From Candidatus Harrisonbacteria bacterium (GTDB lineage Bacteria; Patescibacteriota; Minisyncoccia; UBA6257; 02-FULL-45-10c): a stretch of DNA of 64,000 bases. This document shows positions 37,300-46,125 of the stretch, in pieces. Made by a program: the position numbers and the translations under genes. The notes beneath the pieces were generated by a model. The model saw nothing but the letters and a program-made list of their open reading frames with translations, had not been told where the DNA came from and ran no database searches. Location: contig JACROC010000005.1 in assembly GCA_016214655.1 (NCBI GenBank), positions 67,078-131,077 of the forward strand, written 5' to 3'. The stretch's first letter is position 1; the number at the start of each line of letters is the position of its first letter.

Positions 37300-38448
37300 C
37301 TACTCTTTAGGAGTAAAATATTTTTTACCTTTCAGTTTTTCCGGCAGAAGTTCGTCCTTGGTATATTTTTCATATCCCTTTCCGTATCCCAAATTTTTCA
37401 TCAGTTTAGTGGGTGCGTTCCTGATTTTCATCGGCACCGGAAGATTGCCCAATTTCTCCGCATCCTCCATCGCCAGCAGATATGCTTCATAAGCGCTCCT
37501 GTCTTTTTTGGCAAGCGACAGATAAACCACCCCGTGCGCGAGGTTAATGCCGCATTCAGGCATACCAATGATATCCACTGCCTGAAATACTTCATTAGCA
37601 ACTACCAGCGCCGTTGGCTGAGCCATCCCGATATCTTCGCTGGCAAATATCACCATGCGCCGGGCAACAAACTTCGGATCTTCTCCGGCTTTCAGCATCC
37701 GGGACAGATAATAAAGCGCCGCATCCGGCTGGCTAGCCCGCATGCTTTTAATGAATGCACTGATGAGATTGTAGTGCTCCTCGCCTTTTTTATCATAACG
37801 CAAAAATTTAGACTGGAGAGTATTTTTCAGATTCTTGAGATTAATCTTTTTATATAGTCCGTAAGTATTTTCCAGCATGGCAATCGCCTGCCGGGCATCG
37901 CCATTAGCCATCGCCACCAGCCATTCCACGGATTCTTTATCCATCGGATAACCGGCCCGCTTGATTATCTTTTCCATATCCGCCGCCGGCAATTCATTAA
38001 GCACAAAAACCCGGCACCTGGAAAGCAAAGCCGGAATCACTTCAAAGCTCGGATTTTCAGTAGTCGCGCCGATCAGCGTCAGTTCGCCGCGCTCCACAAA
38101 AGGCAACAGAAAATCCTGCTGGGCTTTATTGAAGCGGTGAATTTCATCCAAAAATAAAACTTTCGGCTTGCCCCGCACCGAACCCATAAAACCATCCTCA
38201 ATAATGCGCCGGATATCATCCTTACCGGCCGAAACCGCAGAAAGCTCATACATCTCCGCATCCAGGCTTTTGGCATAAATTCTCGCTAAAGTTGTTTTGC
38301 CGCATCCCGGCGGACCCCAAAGGATAAAAGAAAAAAGATGCTTCTTTTCAATGGCAGTCCTAAGCGGACCACCCTTGCCGGCCAAATGTTCCTGGCCGAT
38401 AAAATCCTTTAAGGTTAAAGGCCGTATTTTTGAAGCCAATGGTTCCAT
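37300..38448 (-). CDS. rarA: replication-associated recombination protein A (RarA/MgsA AAA+ ATPase)
   Basis: [15 protein letters not shown] Walker [16 protein letters not shown] Walker B and sensor regions, plus a C-terminal MgsA domain. Confidence 0.85.
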
Positions 38449-38514
38449 GCTAATAAAATAAAACTGCTATCAGAATTTGCATTATGCATTTTTTGCACAT
38501 TGCTTTTTATTCAA

Positions 38515-39174
38515 TTAATTAAGAAAGCTCGGCTTTTTAATGACCTGAACTACCTTCCCGTTGATCATAAAATTATCATTCGGGTGGATATAGATCGGCG
38601 GAAAATCTTTGGTAGATTCAGACATCAGCACCACCTGGTTATTATTTTTATCCAGATAAAATTTCTTGATGTTCGCCATGCCATCAATAATGGAAAGCAC
38701 AATGTCTCCGGTTTTGACGTTCTTATCGTCTACATTCACAACCACATAATCCCCGTCTTCAATATTTTTCCCGCCGATTTTCGCCCGGTTCATACTGGGA
38801 CCGACTACTTTCAGGGCAAAAAGACGGCTCTCCTTAGCTTTTGCCGGCGCAAGCAATGAACTGGAAATCCTTAAAAATCCTTCAATATTAGTTTCGGCAA
38901 AAATCGTCGCTGGTCCGGCATTTACCGATCCTAAAATAGGAATAGTAAGGAGCTTGCCGTTGCCGGACATAGTTTCCCATTCCTGCCTGATTTTCTTGAT
39001 CATTCCCTTAGCTTTATTAATTTTAATAAGCCCCTTAGCTTGGAGCTGTAAAAGATGATGTTTAACTTTCTGCGGAGAATCCACTCCGATAAACGACCCT
39101 ATTTCTCTCAAGGTATGCTGGCCCAAGTTTTTCTCCTGGGCGACTTTTAATAATTGTTCTTGTATTTTATGCAT
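38515..39174 (-). CDS. lexA: LexA repressor (HTH plus S24 peptidase)
   Basis: N-terminal winged HTH. Cleavage-site-like NAGP. Catalytic Ser in VVGPSM and Lys in a KVVQVIKK-type C-terminus. Confidence 0.75.
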   Translation of the reverse strand: MHKIQEQLLKVAQEKNLGQHTLREIGSFIGVDSPQKVKHHLLQLQAKGLIKINKAKGMIKKIRQEWETMSGNGKLLTIPILGSVNAGPATIFAETNIEGFLRISSSLLAPAKAKESRLFALKVVGPSMNRAKIGGKNIEDGDYVVVNVDDKNVKTGDIVLSIIDGMANIKKFYLDKNNNQVVLMSESTKDFPPIYIHPNDNFMINGKVVQVIKKPSFLN

Positions 39175-39182
39175 ACCCGGTG

Positions 39183-39446
39183 CTACAACTTCGATTGGTA
39201 ATAGATTTTAAGCCGTTTAGCTAAAAACCTGCGACCTCTCGTAGTTTTTAAATATTCTTCGCGCCTTTCCGCGTCTTGTTGATTGACGCAAGCTTCAAAA
39301 TAAATAAGTTTCATAGGTAATCGTGGTTTAGTAGAAAATGATTTACCTTGATTATGTTCTTCTATCCTGCGCTTCAAATTATTGGTGTAACCGACATACC
39401 TTTGCTTATCATATAAACTTTCTAATACGCAAACGTAGAAGAACAT
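39183..39446 (-). CDS. GIY-YIG nuclease family protein (UPF0213)
   Basis: MFFYVCVLESLYDKQRYVGYTNNLKRRIEEHN. Start moved to the internal Met matching the family N-terminus. Lies immediately upstream of lexA, probably as an operon. Confidence 0.7.
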   Translation of the reverse strand: MFFYVCVLESLYDKQRYVGYTNNLKRRIEEHNQGKSFSTKPRLPMKLIYFEACVNQQDAERREEYLKTTRGRRFLAKRLKIYYQSKL

Positions 39447-39604
39447 AATCGAAGTTGTAGCACCGGGCATATTCTTATTATAGCATATTAGTTATGTAAA
39501 AGTACAACCCAGTTGACAGAGTTGACAAGATTTTAAAGAATATAAGGGTGTTGTTGGGATAAAAACTTATAAAACTCCCGCGGAAGGGAAATTTATTATT
39601 CTAA

Positions 39605-40003
39605 TTAAAAATTTAAAAAGAAGATTGCTAACTGCAGTACCGTTGCAAATGCGCCCCAGAAAAGATACGGCAAAAGCAAAACAAAAATCAATTTTGAATA
39701 TTGCCAAATTCTGTATTCAAAAAATGCCAAAGTCCCTAAAATTATTAAAATATCGATTGATGCCGGCCAAAGCGGCCTTAACCCTAGCTGAATTGGGGTG
39801 AATAAAAGATTGGCAGCCAGATTAGCAAGAAAAATCCACAGTAAATTTTTCGGCGCTTCTTTCCTATAAACTAAATAAATCAAATATATTCCCGCGGCCG
39901 CGATCAGCGGATAGATAATCCCCCACGCCAGCCCAAACACCCGTTCCGGCGGAGAAAAAAATGGCTTTTGAATATTCTGATAGAATTCTTGATAAGTTCT
40001 CAC
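39605..40003 (-). CDS. TspO/MBR family (tryptophan-rich sensory protein-like) membrane protein
   Basis: Five TM helices with conserved Trp/Pro positions (GLAWGIIYPLIA, LFTPIQLGLRPLWPA). Confidence 0.65.
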   Translation of the reverse strand: MRTYQEFYQNIQKPFFSPPERVFGLAWGIIYPLIAAAGIYLIYLVYRKEAPKNLLWIFLANLAANLLFTPIQLGLRPLWPASIDILIILGTLAFFEYRIWQYSKLIFVLLLPYLFWGAFATVLQLAIFFLNF

Positions 40004-40080
40004 ATTTTTATTCTACCATACTAAATTCCCGCGGAAGGCAAATTTAGAAACAAAAAACCGCCTAGTTAATCAGGCGGTTA

Positions 40081-40836
40081 TTATTTTTTAGACAAACTCC
40101 AGACAAGAGCAGTGGCATTATCTTCCAAGCCCCGATCCTCTGCCCACTTCATAACATCTTGAGCTGTTGAGCGCCGCATCGCGCATTCTTTGATTTCTTC
40201 AAGAAGCTTGCCGGTGTTGTGATGTCCCGGATCAAAAACTCCATCCGATGCGACCAACACCCACTCTGGATTATGAATCGTATAAATGTCCGGTTCACGC
40301 GAAAGGACTTTGCCGAGATAAGAATCGCCTAAAGCCCGGCTCATTTGCAAACCACGGACTAAAGCACTTAAGTCGGTCCAGATATATCCATCCGCATATA
40401 TTCCGCCGCGCTGTTCCGCCGCTTTCCGCTCTTTAAGATTGGAACGGACATTATGTTCCGGGCTTACATTAAGATTCCCCTCTTGATCCAATACCACTAC
40501 CGGAGAATCACCGAGAACCGCAACCGAAACCCCGGGAATACCATCCAACAGCAGCGCGGCTGAAAAAGTTGAACCCTCACTATAAGCTTCGGTTTGGCTG
40601 TTCAAATCGGCAACCAAGCAGCGCAGGGATTCTTCTGCCTGGCTTTCATCTGTGATCTGAAATAAATCTTTGATTTTTTCCGCGCAAAGTTCCGCAACCG
40701 CTTTCCCGACATGGCCATCCATCACCGCAAGCAGCCAACCTTTTAAATCAGGCTTATCAATCCGCAAGCGGACATATCTGTCTTCCTGATGACTCCTTGG
40801 GCCTTGCCTGATCTCAACACTAACAATGCCTTTCAT
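40081..40836 (-). CDS. PP2C-family serine/threonine phosphatase
   Basis: RSHQEDRY, AVMDGHVG and VASDGVFD metal-binding motifs. Confidence 0.75.
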   Translation of the reverse strand: MKGIVSVEIRQGPRSHQEDRYVRLRIDKPDLKGWLLAVMDGHVGKAVAELCAEKIKDLFQITDESQAEESLRCLVADLNSQTEAYSEGSTFSAALLLDGIPGVSVAVLGDSPVVVLDQEGNLNVSPEHNVRSNLKERKAAEQRGGIYADGYIWTDLSALVRGLQMSRALGDSYLGKVLSREPDIYTIHNPEWVLVASDGVFDPGHHNTGKLLEEIKECAMRRSTAQDVMKWAEDRGLEDNATALVWSLSKK

Positions 40837-40980
40837 TATTCACCCCTCAATAATGCTGATAACAAAATAACTTATCGCGAATCACTCCGTCAATACTCAA
40901 AACTCCTCTGAAAATCAAATTTTATTTTTTTATTATTGCGCCACGACACCGCGGTGTAGTGACGGGCATGTGATATAATG

Positions 40981-41181
40981 CTAAACCAATCTATACTTTT
41001 CATTTCTATAAACTACCCTAACTTTTCTCGTATCTATCTCAATCCATTTTTGGTCCAGCTTATTTTTATAATCCTCTTTCTTTATATAACAATGACCCCA
41101 AATTTTAACTTGGTTTTTCTTATTTTTATCGAAATAAATTTCGGCTAATTTGTTATTTACAATCGCGAAACTCCAGGACAT
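40981..41181 (-). CDS. small protein downstream of XRE regulator (possible toxin partner)
   Basis: 66 aa, basic. Preceded by a repeated operator/promoter cassette identical to the one upstream of 42078..42929. Confidence 0.4.
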   Translation of the reverse strand: MSWSFAIVNNKLAEIYFDKNKKNQVKIWGHCYIKKEDYKNKLDQKWIEIDTRKVRVVYRNEKYRLV

Positions 41182-41263
41182 ATGTTTATTTTATCACAAA
41201 ACAGAGCCACGAGGCGCTGTTTTGATTTTTTACCTCCCGCGGAAGAGAAATTTTATATAAATT

Positions 41264-41566
41264 CTAAACTAAAGAAATTTTCAATTTCCCCTTGAGTGAA
41301 TTAGCGATTTTATTTAGTTTATCCGCTGTAACGTTCTGCTCTCCGCTTTCAATTCTAGCAATCTCGCTCTGAGTGGTTTGCATTTTTTTAGCTAATTCTT
41401 TTTGAGTTAAACCCCTTTTCTTTCTTGCGGAATAAATTTCGTAGCCAAGCGCAAGTCTGTGAAACCTCTCATCGGCTTTCGCCCGAGCTTTTTTAGTTGG
41501 ATATTGCTCTTTTAAAATATCTTCAAAAGAGCGGAATTTAATTTTTGTATTTTGGTTTTTTGTCAT
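41264..41566 (-). CDS. XRE-family helix-turn-helix transcriptional regulator
   Basis: RKKRGLTQKELAKKMQTTQSEIARIESGEQNVTADKLNKIANSL is a canonical Cro/C1-type HTH. Confidence 0.75.
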   Translation of the reverse strand: MTKNQNTKIKFRSFEDILKEQYPTKKARAKADERFHRLALGYEIYSARKKRGLTQKELAKKMQTTQSEIARIESGEQNVTADKLNKIANSLKGKLKISLV

Positions 41567-41680
41567 TATTTTATTTAAATAAAAATAGCATATATGCTAT
41601 ATTTGTCAATGGTGGTTTGTGAATAACTACCCCACTACACCGCGGTGTAGTGACGTGGTAAGTAAAATTAAAGTAAAAAT

Positions 41681-42073
41681 TTATAATTTTACTTCTTTGA
41701 TTTCAATCTGCGATCTACCTTTTCCTTCCTCTTTTGGCTTTTGAAAATTTATAAGTAAACCAATTTTTATTTTGAGAATTCTCATATAATTTTTGATTTG
41801 TTGCTCCTCAGACGCCCCAAGCTCACTACCAACCGCTTTCAACTCCAGAACTACCCTATCCTTCCCGAAACTTACAATTATATCCGGATATCCTTCGCCG
41901 ACATAATGATCTTTGTATTTAAGCTCAACTACTTTTTGATTTTCATATCTGATTTTCGCCAACCTTAAACCAACCTGCATGGCTTTATCATATACATCTT
42001 CCGAAAAACCGGAGCCTAAGGAGCGGTAAACATCCCTGGCGATTTTTTTGATTTTATTCAATTTGTTTTGCAT
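41681..42073 (-). CDS. GxxExxY protein (PD-(D/E)XK nuclease-like)
   Basis: GEGYPDIIV...LELKAV matches the GxxExxY signature. Start taken at MQNKLNKI, 4 nt after the upstream stop. Confidence 0.65.
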   Translation of the reverse strand: MQNKLNKIKKIARDVYRSLGSGFSEDVYDKAMQVGLRLAKIRYENQKVVELKYKDHYVGEGYPDIIVSFGKDRVVLELKAVGSELGASEEQQIKNYMRILKIKIGLLINFQKPKEEGKGRSQIEIKEVKL

Positions 42074-42077
42074 AAGT

Positions 42078-42929
42078 TTATTTTCTCTTATTTTCATCTA
42101 AAGTCTTCCCATTTTTATCTTCCCACTGAGTCCATCCATTTACAGATCTTCCCATGATAACATCTCCAGCAGCGCTCGGACTTCTAAAAATGTGGTCCTT
42201 TGTAAAAATAAAAGATTTGTCATTTTCTTTTTTTAAAACACCGTCATTCTGAAGTTTTTGACGAAGATTTCGGCTGCTCATAGGAAGTCCTCTCCTCTCA
42301 GCTATGCGAACCAATGAACCTTTATAAACCACAAATTCTCCATTCTCAAGTAATAAGCCAGAGCCCCTTGCATCTTTATTTTTTTTATCCTCACAAAAAT
42401 ATTTTTCTTCTGTATCTTTTTTAAGATCGTGAATATCTTGAAATAAAGTAAATCCTAAAAAATTTAAAATAAATTGAATTTTACTAAAAAGTTCATCATT
42501 AACAATCCTTTTGTGTTCTGAAAGCCTGGCTTCTTCTGGTTCTGGTTTTGTTTTATTTTCAATATCATAACGATCTACATGCTTTGCTAATTTTATAGAC
42601 TTACTTTCAAGATATTTTATATCGGCGCTATCTAAATTTTTATTAGTAATTATAACCCCAGTCTCCCAAAATTCTTTTTCTGCGTCATGATTACTAAGTC
42701 TTTGATAAAATTTTTCTGATTGTCCAATATAAACAATCTGTCTTGAAGGATCTTCTCCGGCGCCAAAAAGGAAATAAACTCCTGCCTGATTAACTTCTGA
42801 TCGCTTTCCAAGATCTTTTAATTTATTCCGCGGAACCACAAATACCTCACTATTAAAATTAGCGAGATCAATTATTTTAATTCCGTTTGGATTATCATCA
42901 GGAAGTAATATTGTTATAACTTGCGCCAT
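42078..42929 (-). CDS. GIY-YIG nuclease domain protein with C-terminal DUF4357-like domain
   Basis: N-terminal GVYFLFGAGEDPSRQIVYIGQSE...RLSNHD GIY-YIG core. C-terminal region resembles the DUF4357 domain found on such nucleases. Confidence 0.6.
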   Translation of the reverse strand: MAQVITILLPDDNPNGIKIIDLANFNSEVFVVPRNKLKDLGKRSEVNQAGVYFLFGAGEDPSRQIVYIGQSEKFYQRLSNHDAEKEFWETGVIITNKNLDSADIKYLESKSIKLAKHVDRYDIENKTKPEPEEARLSEHKRIVNDELFSKIQFILNFLGFTLFQDIHDLKKDTEEKYFCEDKKNKDARGSGLLLENGEFVVYKGSLVRIAERRGLPMSSRNLRQKLQNDGVLKKENDKSFIFTKDHIFRSPSAAGDVIMGRSVNGWTQWEDKNGKTLDENKRK

Positions 42930-43318
42930 ATATTTATTTTATCACAAAACAGCGCCACAAGGCGCTGTTTTAATTTTTTGACTCCCGCGGAAGGGAATTT
43001 TTATTTAACTTCTTAATAAACAACCTGCTTAAGCAGACACCCTCGCAAAAAGAAATAAAGTAATTACTTACCTTTAATCTAATGATCCCAAACCCTTATC
43101 GCTATAAGAAAAACCTTAACCGAGAAGAATGCCACAAGATGCATCGCGTAAAACCATATTTCATCAAACATCTGTATTCCCCATATCTTATATGAAATCC
43201 AGAATACCAAAGAATGAAAAACTAAATAAGTTAAACTCCCAATGAATCGATTAGAGTTTGGAGATAAACCATTTGAAGATCTATAATGATGCTGGAATTT
43301 TATCATTTACATACTATC

Positions 43319-43678
43319 TTATTTAATTAAACTGGCTTCAAGTAATTTACCCGTAACAGAATTTATTCTTTCGTAAATCACAAAAACTTTACTTTTAGCC
43401 ATTCCAATATTTTCTATCTTTTTATCAAAATGAACGATATCGTTTCTGTATTCTTGTATGAAATTTCGCAAATAAGTAATATCAATTTTTATACTCTCCC
43501 CTAGTTTCTTTTCAAAAATTGGTGCTAAAAAATTTCCATTGCCACAAGCAGGCTCAAGAAAGCGAGATTCGATTCTCTCTGTCTCATTTTTAACCAAATC
43601 TAACATTGCATCCACCTCTCGTTCCCGGGTGAATACTTCGCCATGATCCTTAACTCTTTGTTTAGACTTTATTTGCAT
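43319..43678 (-). pseudogene. N-terminal fragment of an N6-adenine DNA methyltransferase (Eco57I-like), truncated
   Basis: VFTREREVDAMLDLV...LEPACGNGNFL holds motif X and motif I only. No NPPY motif IV. Followed by an unrelated small ORF, so the gene is decayed. Confidence 0.5.
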
Positions 43679-43924
43679 AATATTTTATTTAAAAAATCTC
43701 GCTGTCGGCACGCCGAGGGCTTTAGTGATTCTTTTGACGGTATAAAAAGTCGAGTTCGGTGTTGCCCTAGCTTCAATTTTAGCGTCAATAAATACATCTT
43801 AAAGTGCTTATAAAATTTTTGTTCCTTGGGTATAATTTATACATAAATTATACATCAAATTAATTCTTAATAAGAATCAACAAAAGTTAATAACAGGGTT
43901 CACCTAGCTAGGCGAATCTTGAAA

Positions 43925-44104
43925 AAACTAAACCTATCTGTCGTACGGCAACTACGGAAGCGCCAAAAGCTAGGAACCGCAGCCCCGACGATATGTCGGG
44001 GCTTTTTGCGATAGCAAAACCAGGTTTTTGGCGCTGAGACGTAGGAGCCGTCCCGCGCTGGACGGGACGGACTCCGGTGCCGGTAGACAAATAGGTTTAG
44101 TTTT
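43925..44104 (+). ncRNA. GC-rich structured RNA, paralog A of an unassigned family
   Basis: 5' AACTAAACCTATCTG pairs with 3' CAAATAGGTTTAGTT. Conserved cores GTCGTACGGCAACTACGGA and CCGGTGCCGGTAG are shared with paralog B. Internal hairpins GCGCCAAAAG..TTTTGGCGC and CCGTCCC..GGACGGG. The track ORF 43908..44090 is spurious. Confidence 0.45.
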
Positions 44105-44162
44105 AAAGAGGTTTAAAAATCAAAAAGAGGCCTTATGGCCTCAAATTATCTTAGCTCGGCTA

Positions 44163-44459
44163 TTAAGCCGTCTTAAATTCAGGATATAACTGCACATCAT
44201 TTTCTAGATTCCGGATTCTCTTTATTAAACTCTTGTGCACGTATATTTCTGGAGTTCTAGGCGCGGGAGACTTAAATAAAAATATATCATTGCTTATGCT
44301 GCAGTTAATCCAGACTTCAAAATCTGGGCGGAGCACAATCAGATTATTTTTTAAATCCCAGCTATCCAGGTCCCCAAGGTCAAATACCGCTCCCCCGGGA
44401 GATACGCCGTGCGGAGTCATGTGCAACTGCTCGGTAAATACAACCTCCAACATGTCCAA
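44163..44459 (-). CDS. hypothetical protein
   Basis: 98 aa, downstream of fic. A hairpin plus T-run terminator follows on the minus strand (44115-44140). Confidence 0.4.
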   Translation of the reverse strand: MDMLEVVFTEQLHMTPHGVSPGGAVFDLGDLDSWDLKNNLIVLRPDFEVWINCSISNDIFLFKSPAPRTPEIYVHKSLIKRIRNLENDVQLYPEFKTA

Positions 44460-44538
44460 TCCCTTTATAAAAAGTTCTGAAAAGAGTATATCAATAAGTT
44501 TTTACAAGGTCAAAGATGAGATACTATATTGCCGTCAA

Positions 44539-45420
44539 CTAAATACCGATTTTCCAAATATTCTTTTCTAAAAAAGCCTCAATGGTCTGCCGACTGGCCT
44601 TATTGATAAGATTTGAATGAGAGAGTTTATTATTCTTCGCGTATTCGGTTAAGGTAATAATTTTTTTACCCTCTAAATATGCCAACCGTTTATAATAACT
44701 ATTCGTAAGCGCCCTGCCTACTATCTCCTCCATAATGGCAGTTTTGCCTTTTTCATCAAATTCTTTAAACGCTTCGTAATATTTAACCCTATCAATAAAT
44801 TTTATATTTATCGGAACAAAACCTTCCCGGATCAATAAATAGTTATTTATAACTCTTCCAATGCGGCCATTGCCATCAATAAACGGATGGGTATGCTCAA
44901 ATGTAAGATGCAATAACGCAATGCGTTTTATAATATTTTCATGGCTGCTTGCGTTATATTCTGCAAGCATTTTTTCTAATCGTTCTATTATTTCTTTTGG
45001 CGCCGGAGCGATGTGGCTACCGACACGAACACGCTCGTCACCTTTTCTAAATCTTCCGGCTATATCGTCACGGATGTTAGAAATAAGCATTTTGTGAAGT
45101 GACAACATGACGTCCAACGTCAATTCTTGTTCTTTAGCTCTTTTATCTATGTACGACACCACTCGCGCAAGATTTTTTGCTTCAAAAATCTCGCGTTCAC
45201 TGATAAATCGGTCCAAGTCAATCTGGAGAAGTATCTTTTCCGTCTCCTCAAGCGTGAGAGTACTATTCTCAATGGCGTTTGAGTTATATACCTGTTCAGC
45301 GACCTCAGCCTCAGAGACAAGTTTAATAAGCGCATTTTTACCAACAGATGCTTTGTAGTATCTCTCGCGAAGAGAATGTATCTTATTAAATACGCCAGAT
45401 ATTTTTGTCATATATAACAA
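44539..45420 (-). CDS. fic: Fic/DOC family protein (AMPylase-type motif)
   Basis: HPFIDGNGRIGR matches the HPFx(D/E)GNGRxxR Fic motif. Confidence 0.8.
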   Translation of the reverse strand: MLYMTKISGVFNKIHSLRERYYKASVGKNALIKLVSEAEVAEQVYNSNAIENSTLTLEETEKILLQIDLDRFISEREIFEAKNLARVVSYIDKRAKEQELTLDVMLSLHKMLISNIRDDIAGRFRKGDERVRVGSHIAPAPKEIIERLEKMLAEYNASSHENIIKRIALLHLTFEHTHPFIDGNGRIGRVINNYLLIREGFVPINIKFIDRVKYYEAFKEFDEKGKTAIMEEIVGRALTNSYYKRLAYLEGKKIITLTEYAKNNKLSHSNLINKASRQTIEAFLEKNIWKIGI

Positions 45421-45430
45421 TTATAGCCAC

Positions 45431-45528
45431 TTTCACGGTTTTGTCAATATAACCGTGAAAATACCTGTTTTTTCCTATATTTACACGGTTTTGGATCGTT
45501 CTATATTCAATTGTCAAGTAATTGACAA
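45431..45528. promoter_or_regulatory. inverted-repeat operators in the fic promoter region
   Basis: TTTCACGGTT-N10-AACCGTGAAA (45431-45460) and TTGTCAA-gtaa-TTGACAA (45511-45528), upstream of the minus-strand fic start. Confidence 0.45.
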
Positions 45529-46125
45529 CTAACGTACAGAATATTTTTTTCGATTCCAAAAACAATGTTCCATATGGTCATTCACCATCCCGGTTGCCTG
45601 CATATGGGCGTACAAAGTCGTTGGACCGAGAAATTTGAAGCCACGGTTCTTCAGATCTTTTGACCACGTAATAGCCTCATCGCTCACCGCCTTATAGTCG
45701 CTCATTTTCGCCACCTTATTGATAATCGGACGATTATCTACAAACCCCCACATATATTTTGAGAAGGTGCCAAATTCTTTTTTAACTTCCAAAAACCGGG
45801 CGGCGTTGTTGATGGCCGCTTCTATCTTTAATCGGTTCCGCACAATTCCGGCATCCTGCATCAGGCGGTTAAAATCTTTTTTAGTAAACCTGGCTACCCG
45901 CACCGGATCAAAACCCGCAAAAGCCTTCCGGAAGTTTTTCCTTTTATTAAGAATCGTCCTCCAGCTCAAACCGGCCTGGAAACTCTCCAGGCACAAAAAT
46001 TCAAATATCTTTTTATCATCATGAAGCGGAACGCCCCATTCCTTATCGTGATATTCTTTCATTAAGAAATCCTGCTCCAATACCCACTTGCACCGCCCTA
46101 GTGTTTTATTTATTGTCCGTACCAT
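45529..46125 (-). CDS. tag: DNA-3-methyladenine glycosylase I
   Basis: RCKWV...YHDKEWGVP...FEFLCLESFQAGLSW aligns with the E. coli Tag N-terminus. C-terminal zinc ligands HMEHC. Confidence 0.85.
   Translation of the reverse strand: MVRTINKTLGRCKWVLEQDFLMKEYHDKEWGVPLHDDKKIFEFLCLESFQAGLSWRTILNKRKNFRKAFAGFDPVRVARFTKKDFNRLMQDAGIVRNRLKIEAAINNAARFLEVKKEFGTFSKYMWGFVDNRPIINKVAKMSDYKAVSDEAITWSKDLKNRGFKFLGPTTLYAHMQATGMVNDHMEHCFWNRKKYSVR

What the first reader, a model, noticed from the sequence alone, without database searches (positions are those of the whole stretch)
41190..41232. Duplicated palindromic-operator plus leaderless-promoter cassette (second copy 42940-42982)
Two genes, 40981..41181 and 42078..42929, are each preceded by a near-identical arrangement:
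- the CCCGCGGAAGGG motif;
- a perfect or near-perfect inverted repeat (AACAGCGCC-ACAA-GGCGCTGTT at 42945-42966; ACAGAGCC-acga-GGCGCTGT at 41200-41221);
- the identical string TGTGATAAAATAAA(C/T)ATATG, in which an extended -10-like TGTGATAAAAT abuts the start codon. This implies leaderless mRNAs.

The palindromes are ideal dimeric HTH operators, plausibly for the XRE regulator encoded between them. The XRE gene's own promoter also carries a perfect 16-bp palindrome, ATAGCATATATGCTAT (41585-41600), between a TTGACA -35 and a -10.
Basis: seen in the sequence. Interest (0 to 1): 0.55.

Follow-up and report, generated by a model that had tools for sequence, protein, structure and literature searches.

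The report
Duplicated terminator plus leaderless-promoter module
A 90-base stretch between genes, made of a transcription stop signal followed directly by a start signal that abuts the start codon, occurs twice in front of two unrelated accessory genes of an uncultured Patescibacteria genome; its parts are ordinary, and its palindrome is most likely a terminator, not a binding site for the neighbouring regulator.

Summary
A 90-nt direct repeat (41179-41268 and 42927-43016, 88% identical) precedes the 66-aa gene and the 283-aa GIY-YIG/DUF4357 gene, both on the minus strand.

Read in the gene direction, each copy contains:
- a small hairpin around CCCTTCCGCGGGAG ("M");
- an A-tract;
- a GC-rich hairpin, followed by TTTTG;
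- TGATAAAAT, then 6 nt, then ATG.

The leaderless-promoter reading is supported. Homologues confirm both start codons. There is no room for a Shine-Dalgarno site. A -10-like hexamer sits 6-7 nt upstream of 12 of 84 gene starts in the window, and the same peak appears in 80 related Patescibacteria loci.

The operator reading of the GC palindromes is not supported. They are built like at least ten other intrinsic terminators in the window, and one lies about 40 nt after the XRE stop codon. The XRE protein is an orphan HigA-type antitoxin. Its own 16-bp palindrome ATAGCATATATGCTAT is conserved with the promoter in two relatives and is unrelated to the hairpins.

The unusual points are the duplication itself and two further local repeats: M (four copies) and a CCGCGG-centred palindrome (two copies). 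All lie in a variable island between the tag and rarA genes. The closest analogue is the phage PeSL terminator/promoter cassette. Interest is low to moderate.

The parts
41179..41268 (-). Copy a of the 90-nt composite module (M hairpin, terminator hairpin, extended -10, start codon of the 66-aa gene)
   Evidence: D1, reference copy; sequence
42927..43016 (-). Copy b of the 90-nt composite module, upstream of the 283-aa GIY-YIG/DUF4357 gene
   Evidence: 88% identical to copy a
41188..41196 (-). Extended -10 TGATAAAAT of copy a. A 6-nt spacer AAACAT (41182-41187) follows, then ATG at 41181-41179.
42936..42944 (-). Extended -10 TGATAAAAT of copy b. A 6-nt spacer AAATAT (42930-42935) follows, then ATG at 42929-42927.
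41197..41224 (.). Hairpin H1a: AAAACAGCGCC-UCGU-GGCUCUGUUUUG with one internal mismatch, -15.1 kcal/mol. Read as the intrinsic terminator after the XRE gene (stop codon at 41264-41266).
42945..42972 (.). Hairpin H1b: perfect AAAACAGCGCC-UUGU-GGCGCUGUUUUG, -19.2 kcal/mol. The scan also calls it as a + strand terminator.
41232..41251 (-). M hairpin copy (stem around the constant hexaloop UUCCGC), starting about 12 nt after the XRE stop codon
42981..42998 (-). M hairpin copy inside module copy b
40021..40047 (-). M copy with a longer stem. It lies after the PP2C terminator and directly before the TspO promoter TGGTAGAAT-6 nt-GTG.
39575..39595 (-). M copy starting about 10 nt after the TspO stop codon, followed by UUUUAUAAGUUUUU
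40939..40964 (.). Palindrome P1 (CCGCGG-centred), downstream of the 66-aa gene stop codon; no U-tract
41630..41655 (.). Palindrome P2, downstream of the 138-aa gene stop codon and about 20 nt upstream of the XRE -35 box
40981..41181 (-). 66-aa gene of a conserved small-protein family (function unknown); N-terminus MSW(S/C)FAIVNN is shared with homologues
42078..42929 (-). 283-aa GIY-YIG/DUF4357 gene; homologues have the same length and cover it fully
41681..42076 (-). PD-(D/E)XK (PDDEXK_3) gene, probably co-transcribed with the 283-aa gene (the TAA stop lies 1 nt before its probable ATG at 42076)
41264..41566 (-). XRE/HTH_3 gene; a HigA-type antitoxin homologue without a toxin partner
41582..41609 (-). 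XRE promoter: TTGACA, 16-nt spacer, TG-TATTTT, with the conserved 16-bp operator ATAGCATATATGCTAT at 41585-41600

Best explanation
The repeat is a compact intergenic regulatory module that has been copied once. In the direction of transcription (minus strand) it does three things.
1. It ends the upstream transcript with a canonical, bidirectional intrinsic terminator: A-tract, 7-9-bp GC-rich stem, 4-nt loop, UUUUG. A small hairpin (M) precedes this terminator.
2. It then restarts transcription from an extended -10 promoter, TGnTAAAAT, which has no usable -35 box.
3. The -10 hexamer ends 6 nt before the ATG, so the predicted transcript begins at the A of AUG. That makes a leaderless mRNA for the 66-aa gene and for the GIY-YIG/DUF4357-PDDEXK_3 operon.

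The XRE protein between the copies is an orphan HigA-type antitoxin. It most likely represses only its own promoter, through the unrelated 16-bp palindrome ATAGCATATATGCTAT.

Shown: the repeat, the hairpin energies, the start codons, the positional enrichment of -10 boxes, and conservation of the XRE operator. Inferred: termination, the transcription start site, protein binding, and the way the module came to be duplicated.
For: Repeat: 90 nt, 88% identity; no chance matches expected.

Terminator reading:
- Hairpin energies are -15.1 and -19.2 kcal/mol, with z-scores of -5.9 and -6.2.
- The scan calls copy b as a terminator.
- At least ten other hairpins just downstream of stop codons in the window have the same A-tract / GC stem / 3-4-nt loop / T-tract build, for example CAAAAACCCGC..GCGGGTTTTTG and AAAAACGCCC-ATT-GGGCGTTTTT.
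- H1a begins about 40 nt after the XRE stop codon.
- XRE relatives L093 and L091 have unrelated hairpins followed by U-rich tracts at the same place.

Leaderless reading:
- Stop codons lie in frame just upstream of both ATGs and there is no GGAGG.
- Homologues share the N-termini.
- A -10-like hexamer at gap 6-7 precedes 12 of 84 gene starts, against 1.6% of other ATGs (p = 6e-8) and 5.1% of ATGs in AT-rich context (p = 0.01). Six of the 12 carry TGn.
- The gap histogram peaks at 6-7.
- The same peak, 63 against a background of about 15, appears over 963 ORFs in 80 Patescibacteria loci.
- A Pribnow box 6-8 nt from the start codon is the published leaderless signature (PMC6028130).
- Compact terminator-to-promoter junctions recur at gene starts 51526, 46125 and 35006.

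XRE operator:
- The palindrome and the -35 box are conserved in L091 and L093.
- L093 has a Gp49/HigB-like toxin gene upstream of its XRE gene.
Against: - There are no transcript data for this uncultured organism.
- Copy b has no intact ORF immediately upstream for its terminator to serve.
- The U-tract on the gene strand is short (UUUUGUGAU) and is better on the opposite strand.
- The hairpin spans roughly -16 to -43 of the predicted promoter, which is also where a repressor would bind.
- Only two copies exist and no related sequence was found elsewhere. Covariation therefore cannot separate an RNA structure from a DNA palindrome.
- The one stem difference between the copies is an uncompensated mismatch.
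- The role of M is unexplained.
Confidence: 0.65

Rival explanations
1. The GC palindromes are operators of a dimeric DNA-binding repressor (the adjacent XRE protein or another regulator such as the LexA-like protein at 38515-39174). That repressor would co-regulate the two leaderless promoters.
For: Both copies are 9+9-bp dyads with a 4-bp spacer, lying over the -35 region of the predicted promoters. Two unrelated genes share the whole module, as members of a regulon would.
Against: - The XRE family's conserved operator is ATAGCAYATATGCTAT, with a different half-site and spacing.
- The relatives' XRE loci lack H1.
- No H1-like sequence lies in the promoter upstream of the GIY-YIG and LexA-like genes.
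- The flanking A- and T-tracts and the GC-rich stem are terminator features with no role in an operator.
Confidence: 0.1
2. The repeats (the 90-nt module, M and P) are chiefly recombination handles. On this view they are PeSL-like mobile regulatory cassettes, whose homologous recombination inserts, deletes and swaps accessory genes in this island. Their regulatory activity would be real but secondary. This is compatible with the best explanation for how the parts work and competes only on why they are repeated.
For: - All copies lie in direct orientation at gene boundaries within 3.5 kb.
- The genes they bracket are unrelated accessory or defence-type genes and gene remnants.
- The tag-rarA interval is 7 kb here but 1.5 kb, with different genes, in the relative L016.
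- Homology of the XRE cassette to L091 and L093 ends at the stop codon, just before M, and just after P.
- PeSLs are composite terminator/promoter repeats that do exactly this in T4-like phages (PMC2839356, PMC4122927).
Against: - There are only two copies of the composite.
- No other copy was found in JGI metagenomes, IMG/VR, phage or plasmid records, or 80 related loci.
- No close relative is available to show indels bounded by the repeats.
- The copies are 12% diverged.
Confidence: 0.2
3. TAAAAT is not a promoter. On this view the genes are translated from longer, leadered or read-through transcripts, and the AU-rich sequence before the ATG serves Shine-Dalgarno-independent initiation.
For: Only about 13-15% of putative genes have an SD-like motif, so SD-independent initiation must be common. 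AT-rich upstream regions produce -10-like hexamers by chance: 5.1% of control ATGs in AT-rich context have one.
Against: The enrichment is position-specific, at gaps 6-7 and not at neighbouring gaps. It survives the AT-rich control (p = 0.01). Half of the cases carry the TGn extension. A strong hairpin lies directly upstream.
Confidence: 0.12
4. The hairpins act on the + strand, as terminators of antisense transcripts. One candidate starts at the TGTGATATAAT element at 40969-40979 and runs antisense through the 66-aa gene.
For: The T-tract is better on the + strand, TTTT(G/A)ATTTTTT. A consensus extended -10 faces into the 66-aa gene from its 3' side.
Against: No comparable + strand promoter is evident for copy b. 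No + strand gene lies nearby. The idea is speculative.
Confidence: 0.05

Closest known systems
Rho-independent (intrinsic), bidirectional terminators
   Same: A GC-rich stem with a 4-nt loop, flanked by an A-tract and a T-tract. It lies after a stop codon and is built like the other terminators of this genome.
   Different: The U-tract on the gene strand is only four U residues and runs straight into the TG of the next promoter. Copy b follows no intact gene.
Leaderless-mRNA promoters (GeneMarkS-2 'group C' signature; Actinobacteria, Deinococcus-Thermus; PMC6028130)
   Same: A Pribnow box ending 6 nt before an AUG, no Shine-Dalgarno site, and positional enrichment across the genome.
   Different: The organism is a Patescibacteria (Candidatus Harrisonbacteria) MAG. 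Here only about 14% of gene starts show the signature, alongside genes with a strong GGAGG. In the paper library searched, I found no paper that links leaderless transcription with this phylum.
PeSL composite promoter/terminator cassettes of T4-like phages (PMC2839356, PMC4122927)
   Same: A short repeated intergenic unit that combines a stem-loop terminator with a sigma-70-type promoter. It sits upstream of accessory genes or ORFans in a variable region, in direct orientation.
   Different: This is a cellular genome, not a phage. There are two copies rather than about 50. The promoter is leaderless and has no -35 box or SD site. No recombination products have been observed.
HigB(Gp49)-HigA(XRE) toxin-antitoxin operon with an autoregulatory operator
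   Same: The XRE protein is 86% identical to one encoded downstream of a Gp49 toxin gene (L093). [quoted passage not shown]
   Different: The toxin gene is missing from the window. The promoter/operator lies 15 nt from the XRE start codon, so this is an orphan antitoxin or regulator.
REP/MITE-type extragenic palindromes and integron attC sites
   Same: Short hairpin-forming repeats at the 3' ends of genes, bracketing small single-gene units (M, P).
   Different: The copies are few and local. There is no RAYT, transposase or integrase within 28-52 kb. There is no attC-type R''-L''/L'-R' structure.

Membership tests
Intrinsic terminator | Stable GC-rich stem-loop with a short loop | tested here: met
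   -15.1 and -19.2 kcal/mol; z-scores -5.9 and -6.2
Intrinsic terminator | U-tract directly 3' of the stem on the transcribed strand | tested here: met
   UUUUGUGAU on the minus strand; UUUU(G/A)AUUUUUU on the + strand
Intrinsic terminator | Lies downstream of the stop codon of a gene in the same orientation | tested here: inconclusive
   Copy a starts about 40 nt after the XRE stop codon. Copy b follows only gene remnants.
Intrinsic terminator | Actually terminates transcription | not testable with these tools
   No transcript data. At least ten terminators of the same build lie after stop codons in the window.
Operator of the adjacent XRE regulator | Dyad symmetry overlapping the core promoter | tested here: met
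   9+9-bp dyad with a 4-bp spacer, lying over the -35 region
Operator of the adjacent XRE regulator | Shares half-site and spacing with the regulator's own conserved operator | tested here: not met
   ATAGCAYATATGCTAT versus AACAGCGCC-N4-GGCGCTGTT. The only other weak match to the XRE operator is at 39480-39495.
Operator of the adjacent XRE regulator | Co-occurs with the regulator in related loci | tested here: not met
   L091, L092 and L093 carry the XRE gene and the 16-bp palindrome but no H1.
Leaderless-mRNA promoter | A -10 hexamer ending 6-8 nt before the start codon, with no SD site | tested here: met
   TGATAAAAT, 6 nt, ATG in both copies
Leaderless-mRNA promoter | The start codon is the true N-terminus and is AUG | tested here: met
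   Homologues begin MSW(C/S)FAIVNN. Homologues of 274-283 aa cover 98-100% of the 283-aa protein. In-frame stop codons lie upstream.
Leaderless-mRNA promoter | The signature is enriched at gene starts genome-wide | tested here: met
   12 of 84 gene starts versus 1.6% of other ATGs, p = 6e-8. The peak at gap 6 also appears in 80 related loci.
Leaderless-mRNA promoter | The transcription start coincides with the A of AUG | not testable with these tools
   Needs dRNA-seq, 5'-RACE or in vitro transcription.
PeSL-type mobile regulatory cassette | A repeated composite of a stem-loop terminator and a promoter, upstream of accessory genes in a variable region | tested here: met
   Two copies. The island between tag and rarA differs from the relative L016.
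PeSL-type mobile regulatory cassette | Indels or mini-circles with breakpoints in the repeats | not testable with these tools
   No close relative and no reads. The source contig is not readable with these tools.
PeSL-type mobile regulatory cassette | Many copies in a phage genome | tested here: not met
   Two copies in 64 kb of a cellular genome. No match in phage, plasmid or viral collections.
Integron cassette array | An integron integrase nearby and attC-type sites | tested here: not met
   No recombinase family passes threshold in the ORFs scanned between 28 and 52 kb. M and P lack the attC architecture, judged by inspection.
HigBA-type autoregulated TA operon (for the 16-bp palindrome) | A palindrome within the promoter, conserved with the antitoxin gene | tested here: met
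HigBA-type autoregulated TA operon (for the 16-bp palindrome) | A toxin gene adjacent to the antitoxin gene | tested here: not met
   The toxin gene is present in L093 (PF05973). It is absent from the window, where the promoter sits 15 nt from the XRE ATG.

The most novel reading that the evidence does not exclude
The 90-nt terminator/promoter composite, together with the M and P hairpin repeats, is a cellular counterpart of the phage PeSL cassettes. On this reading they are portable expression units whose direct repeats drive insertion, deletion and swapping of single accessory genes in the variable islands of a Patescibacteria genome, with each gene delivered with its own terminator and leaderless promoter.
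Probability: 0.15. Interest if true: 0.55.

Novelty: new member of a known kind. Interest (0 to 1): 0.27.

Why it matters
Gene regulation in the uncultured Patescibacteria (CPR) is almost unstudied. This locus gives a clean pair of sequences that can be tested.
- It predicts leaderless transcription from extended -10 promoters.
- It shows how tightly terminators and promoters are packed in these small genomes.
- It corrects a tempting misreading of a terminator as an operator.

If the repeats also mediate gene shuffling, they would be a simple way for such genomes to turn over accessory genes without dedicated recombinases. As it stands, the parts are ordinary and only the duplication is unusual.

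Tried and rejected
Source contig. Three exact-protein look-ups, plus one with the 100%-identical hit P0033, found no record. The proteins are identified as MBI4991995.1 and MBI4991997.1 of a Candidatus Harrisonbacteria MAG, on a 271,595-bp contig. The rest of that genome could not be read.

Other copies of the repeats:
- M, the promoter/hairpin 19-mer and P gave no match in IMG/VR.
- M gave four hits in JGI metagenomes, all in high-GC unrelated contigs; I read these as chance.
- M and P gave no match in 80 Patescibacteria rarA loci.
- The 90-mer gave no match in phage or plasmid records.

Link between the module and the gene it precedes. Homologues of the 66-aa gene lie in unrelated contexts, with unrelated upstream DNA and no XRE neighbour. 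This rejects an XRE/66-aa toxin-antitoxin pair.

Known RNA families. Rfam found only one tRNA in the window and nothing credible in 38.4-44.6 kb.

Integron or recombinase idea. No integrase was found.

Restriction-site avoidance around CCGCGG. The site is over-represented in the window, not avoided: 27 sites against 4.3 expected.

A -10-like TAGAAT upstream of M as the promoter of a small RNA. Its spacing to M is inconsistent between copies, so I dropped it.

Covariation analysis of H1. This is impossible with two copies.

Full report
**Observation**

All genes around the finding lie on the minus strand. A 90-nt direct repeat, 41179-41268 and 42927-43016, is 88% identical between its two copies. 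It ends at the start codons of a 66-aa ORF (40981-41181) and a 283-aa ORF (42078-42929). Neither the shared 19-mer nor the palindrome pattern is expected by chance. The first, at 41200-41221, has one mismatch inside an arm.

Read in the gene direction, each copy is: AAATTTC(C/T)CTTCCGCGGGAG ("M"), an A-tract, AACAGCGCC-T(T/C)GT-GGC(G/T)CTGTT, then TTG-TGATAAAAT-AAA(T/C)AT-ATG.

**Context**

The window is 40.6% GC. It comes from a Patescibacteria MAG. The XRE and GIY-YIG proteins are 100% identical to MBI4991995.1 and MBI4991997.1 of a Candidatus Harrisonbacteria bacterium, on a 271,595-bp contig. The nearest rarA relatives in GTDB are only 79% identical at the protein level.

The region between rarA (37300-38448) and tag (45529-46125) holds these accessory genes and remnants:
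- a LexA-like S24 protein;
- a small GIY-YIG protein;
- TspO;
- PP2C;
- the 66-aa protein;
- the XRE protein;
- a PDDEXK_3 protein;
- a GIY-YIG/DUF4357 protein;
- a truncated methyltransferase;
- Fic.

In relative L016, tag and rarA are 1.5 kb apart with different genes between them. The interval therefore looks variable.

**The leaderless promoter**

Both start codons are secure. Homologues of the 66-aa protein (32 found, 52-79% identical) begin MSW(C/S)FAIVNN. Homologues of the 283-aa protein are 274-283 aa long and cover it fully. In-frame stop codons lie directly upstream of both ATGs, and there is no purine-rich Shine-Dalgarno sequence.

TGATAAAAT is an extended -10 element (TGn + TAAAAT). 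Its hexamer ends 6 nt before the ATG, which places the usual start site on the A of AUG.

This arrangement is a property of the genome, not of this locus alone.
- A -10-like hexamer at gap 6-7 precedes 12 of 84 putative gene starts. The figure is 1.6% for all other ATG triplets (p = 6e-8) and 5.1% for ATGs in equally AT-rich context (p = 0.01). Six of the 12 carry TGn.
- The gap histogram peaks sharply at 6-7.
- The neighbouring TspO gene (TGGTAGAAT-6 nt-GTG) and the small GIY-YIG gene (TGCTATAAT-6 nt-ATG) show the same arrangement.
- Across 963 ORFs in 80 related Patescibacteria loci, gap 6 has 63 hits against a background of about 15.

A Pribnow box 6-8 nt from the start codon is the published signature of bacterial leaderless transcription (PMC6028130). 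In the paper library searched, I found no paper that links leaderless transcription with this phylum.

**The GC palindromes**

As RNA, the two hairpins fold at -15.1 and -19.2 kcal/mol (z-scores -5.9 and -6.2) on the gene strand, and about as well on the other strand. Each is flanked by AAAA and UUUU. The scan calls copy b as a terminator.

A survey of hairpins just downstream of stop codons found at least ten with the same build: A-tract, 5-7 GC pairs, a 3-4-nt loop and a T-tract. H1a starts about 40 nt after the XRE stop codon. Terminator hairpins that run directly into a leaderless -10 element also occur at gene starts 51526, 46125 and 35006. The module therefore matches the normal compact intergenic layout of this genome.

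**The XRE protein and its operator**

The XRE protein hits HTH_3 and HTH_37.
- A homologue 86% identical (L093) is encoded directly downstream of a Gp49/HigB-type toxin gene.
- A homologue 88% identical (L091) follows a decayed remnant of that toxin gene.
- In both loci the palindrome ATAGCA(C/T)ATATGCTAT, the -35 box and about 15 nt upstream align with the window's XRE promoter.
- The window's tttaaataaaatAATG matches the junction between toxin end and antitoxin start in L093.

The window therefore carries a HigA-type antitoxin that has lost its toxin gene but kept its autoregulated promoter. Its operator is unrelated to the GC hairpins in half-site and spacing, and H1 is absent from those loci.

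Downstream of the XRE stop codon, both relatives have unrelated hairpins followed by U-rich tracts. Upstream of the L093 promoter, where palindrome P sits in the window, there is a terminator hairpin. The position is conserved and the sequence is not. That pattern fits terminators, not operators.

**Other repeats**

M occurs four times (39575, 40026, 41234, 42982), in the same orientation and only in this region.
- Each copy can form a 5-11-bp stem around a constant loop UUCCGC. The stem differences between copies are one-sided or wobble changes only, as read from the sequences. This is therefore weak evidence for an RNA structure.
- Two copies start about 10-12 nt after a stop codon (TspO and XRE). 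One follows the PP2C terminator.
- The distance from M to the next start codon varies (22, 52, 52 and 104 nt). That argues against a promoter-bound factor.

P (CACTACACCGCGGTGTAGTG and a variant) occurs twice, downstream of the 66-aa and 138-aa genes. It folds at -13 to -17 kcal/mol but has no U-tract.

No integrase or transposase lies within 28-52 kb. No copy of any of these repeats was found in any collection searched.

**Interpretation**

The best-supported reading is a duplicated intergenic module made of a terminator and a leaderless promoter (confidence about 0.65). The 16-bp palindrome is the only credible XRE operator.

Why the module, M and P are repeated within 3.5 kb is unresolved. 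The closest known analogue is the PeSL terminator/promoter cassette, which mediates modular shuffling in the variable regions of T4-like phages (PMC2839356, PMC4122927). That reading is possible (about 0.15-0.2) but cannot be tested without the full genome, close relatives or reads.

**Verdict**

The element types are ordinary and the finding is of modest interest.

Noticed in passing
window 39172-39471 (TIRs 39176-39196 and 39447-39467): The 95-aa GIY-YIG gene is bounded by perfect 21-bp terminal inverted repeats (CCCGGTGCTACAACTTCGATT), with TATG on both outer sides. It looks like a roughly 290-bp element, with inverted-repeat ends and a 4-bp target-site duplication, inserted exactly at the start codon of the LexA-like gene. 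On this reading the insert borrows the leaderless promoter TGCTATAAT-aagaat-ATG and regenerates an ATG for the LexA-like gene. Four GIY-YIG homologues in related loci showed no such flanking repeats in a crude search.
   Followed up: partly
window 43920-44108: A GC-rich element of about 185 nt that looks non-coding. It is closed by a 27-nt inverted repeat and contains three internal GC hairpins. The MFE is -100 kcal/mol on the minus strand and -106 on the + strand, with z-scores of -10 and -11.6. It lies just after a terminator downstream of the Fic gene and a 98-aa ORF. There is no Rfam match even at E <= 10, and a 21-mer from it has no match in IMG/VR. It is a candidate unknown structured RNA or DNA element.
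   Followed up: partly
window 41264-41609; L093 307-931; L091 440-998: The XRE gene is an orphan HigA-type antitoxin. The Gp49/HigB toxin gene present in L093, and decayed in L091, has been cleanly deleted here. The autoregulated promoter is left 15 nt from the XRE start codon.
   Followed up: yes
window 38449-45528 versus L016 8484-10000: The interval between tag and rarA is about 7 kb of accessory and defence-type genes here. In one relative it is 1.5 kb with two unrelated genes on the opposite strand. It looks like a variable island or insertion hotspot.
   Followed up: partly
window 40969-40979 (+ strand): A consensus extended -10 (TGTGATATAAT) next to palindrome P1 points antisense into the 66-aa gene. 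The H1a hairpin at the other end is a good + strand terminator. Together these could give an antisense transcript of about 245 nt.
   Followed up: no
window 39480-39495: ATAACTAATATGCTAT overlaps the -10 element of the promoter upstream of the GIY-YIG and LexA-like genes. It shares a full half-site (ATATGCTAT) with the XRE operator. Statistically it is a weak match, with 3 mismatches overall; 6 of 100 shuffles gave at least two matches.
   Followed up: no
window 43319-43678 and 43017-43318: A 119-aa ORF carries only the N-terminal motif of an MmeI-type methyltransferase (EPACGNGNFL). It is followed by a 75-aa hydrophobic ORF. These are probably gene remnants upstream of module copy b.
   Followed up: no
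window-wide, and loci L001-L080: Only about 11-15% of putative genes have an SD-like motif 5-16 nt upstream, while a subset have a strong GGAGG. Leaderless, SD-led and other modes of initiation seem to coexist in these Patescibacteria.
   Followed up: partly
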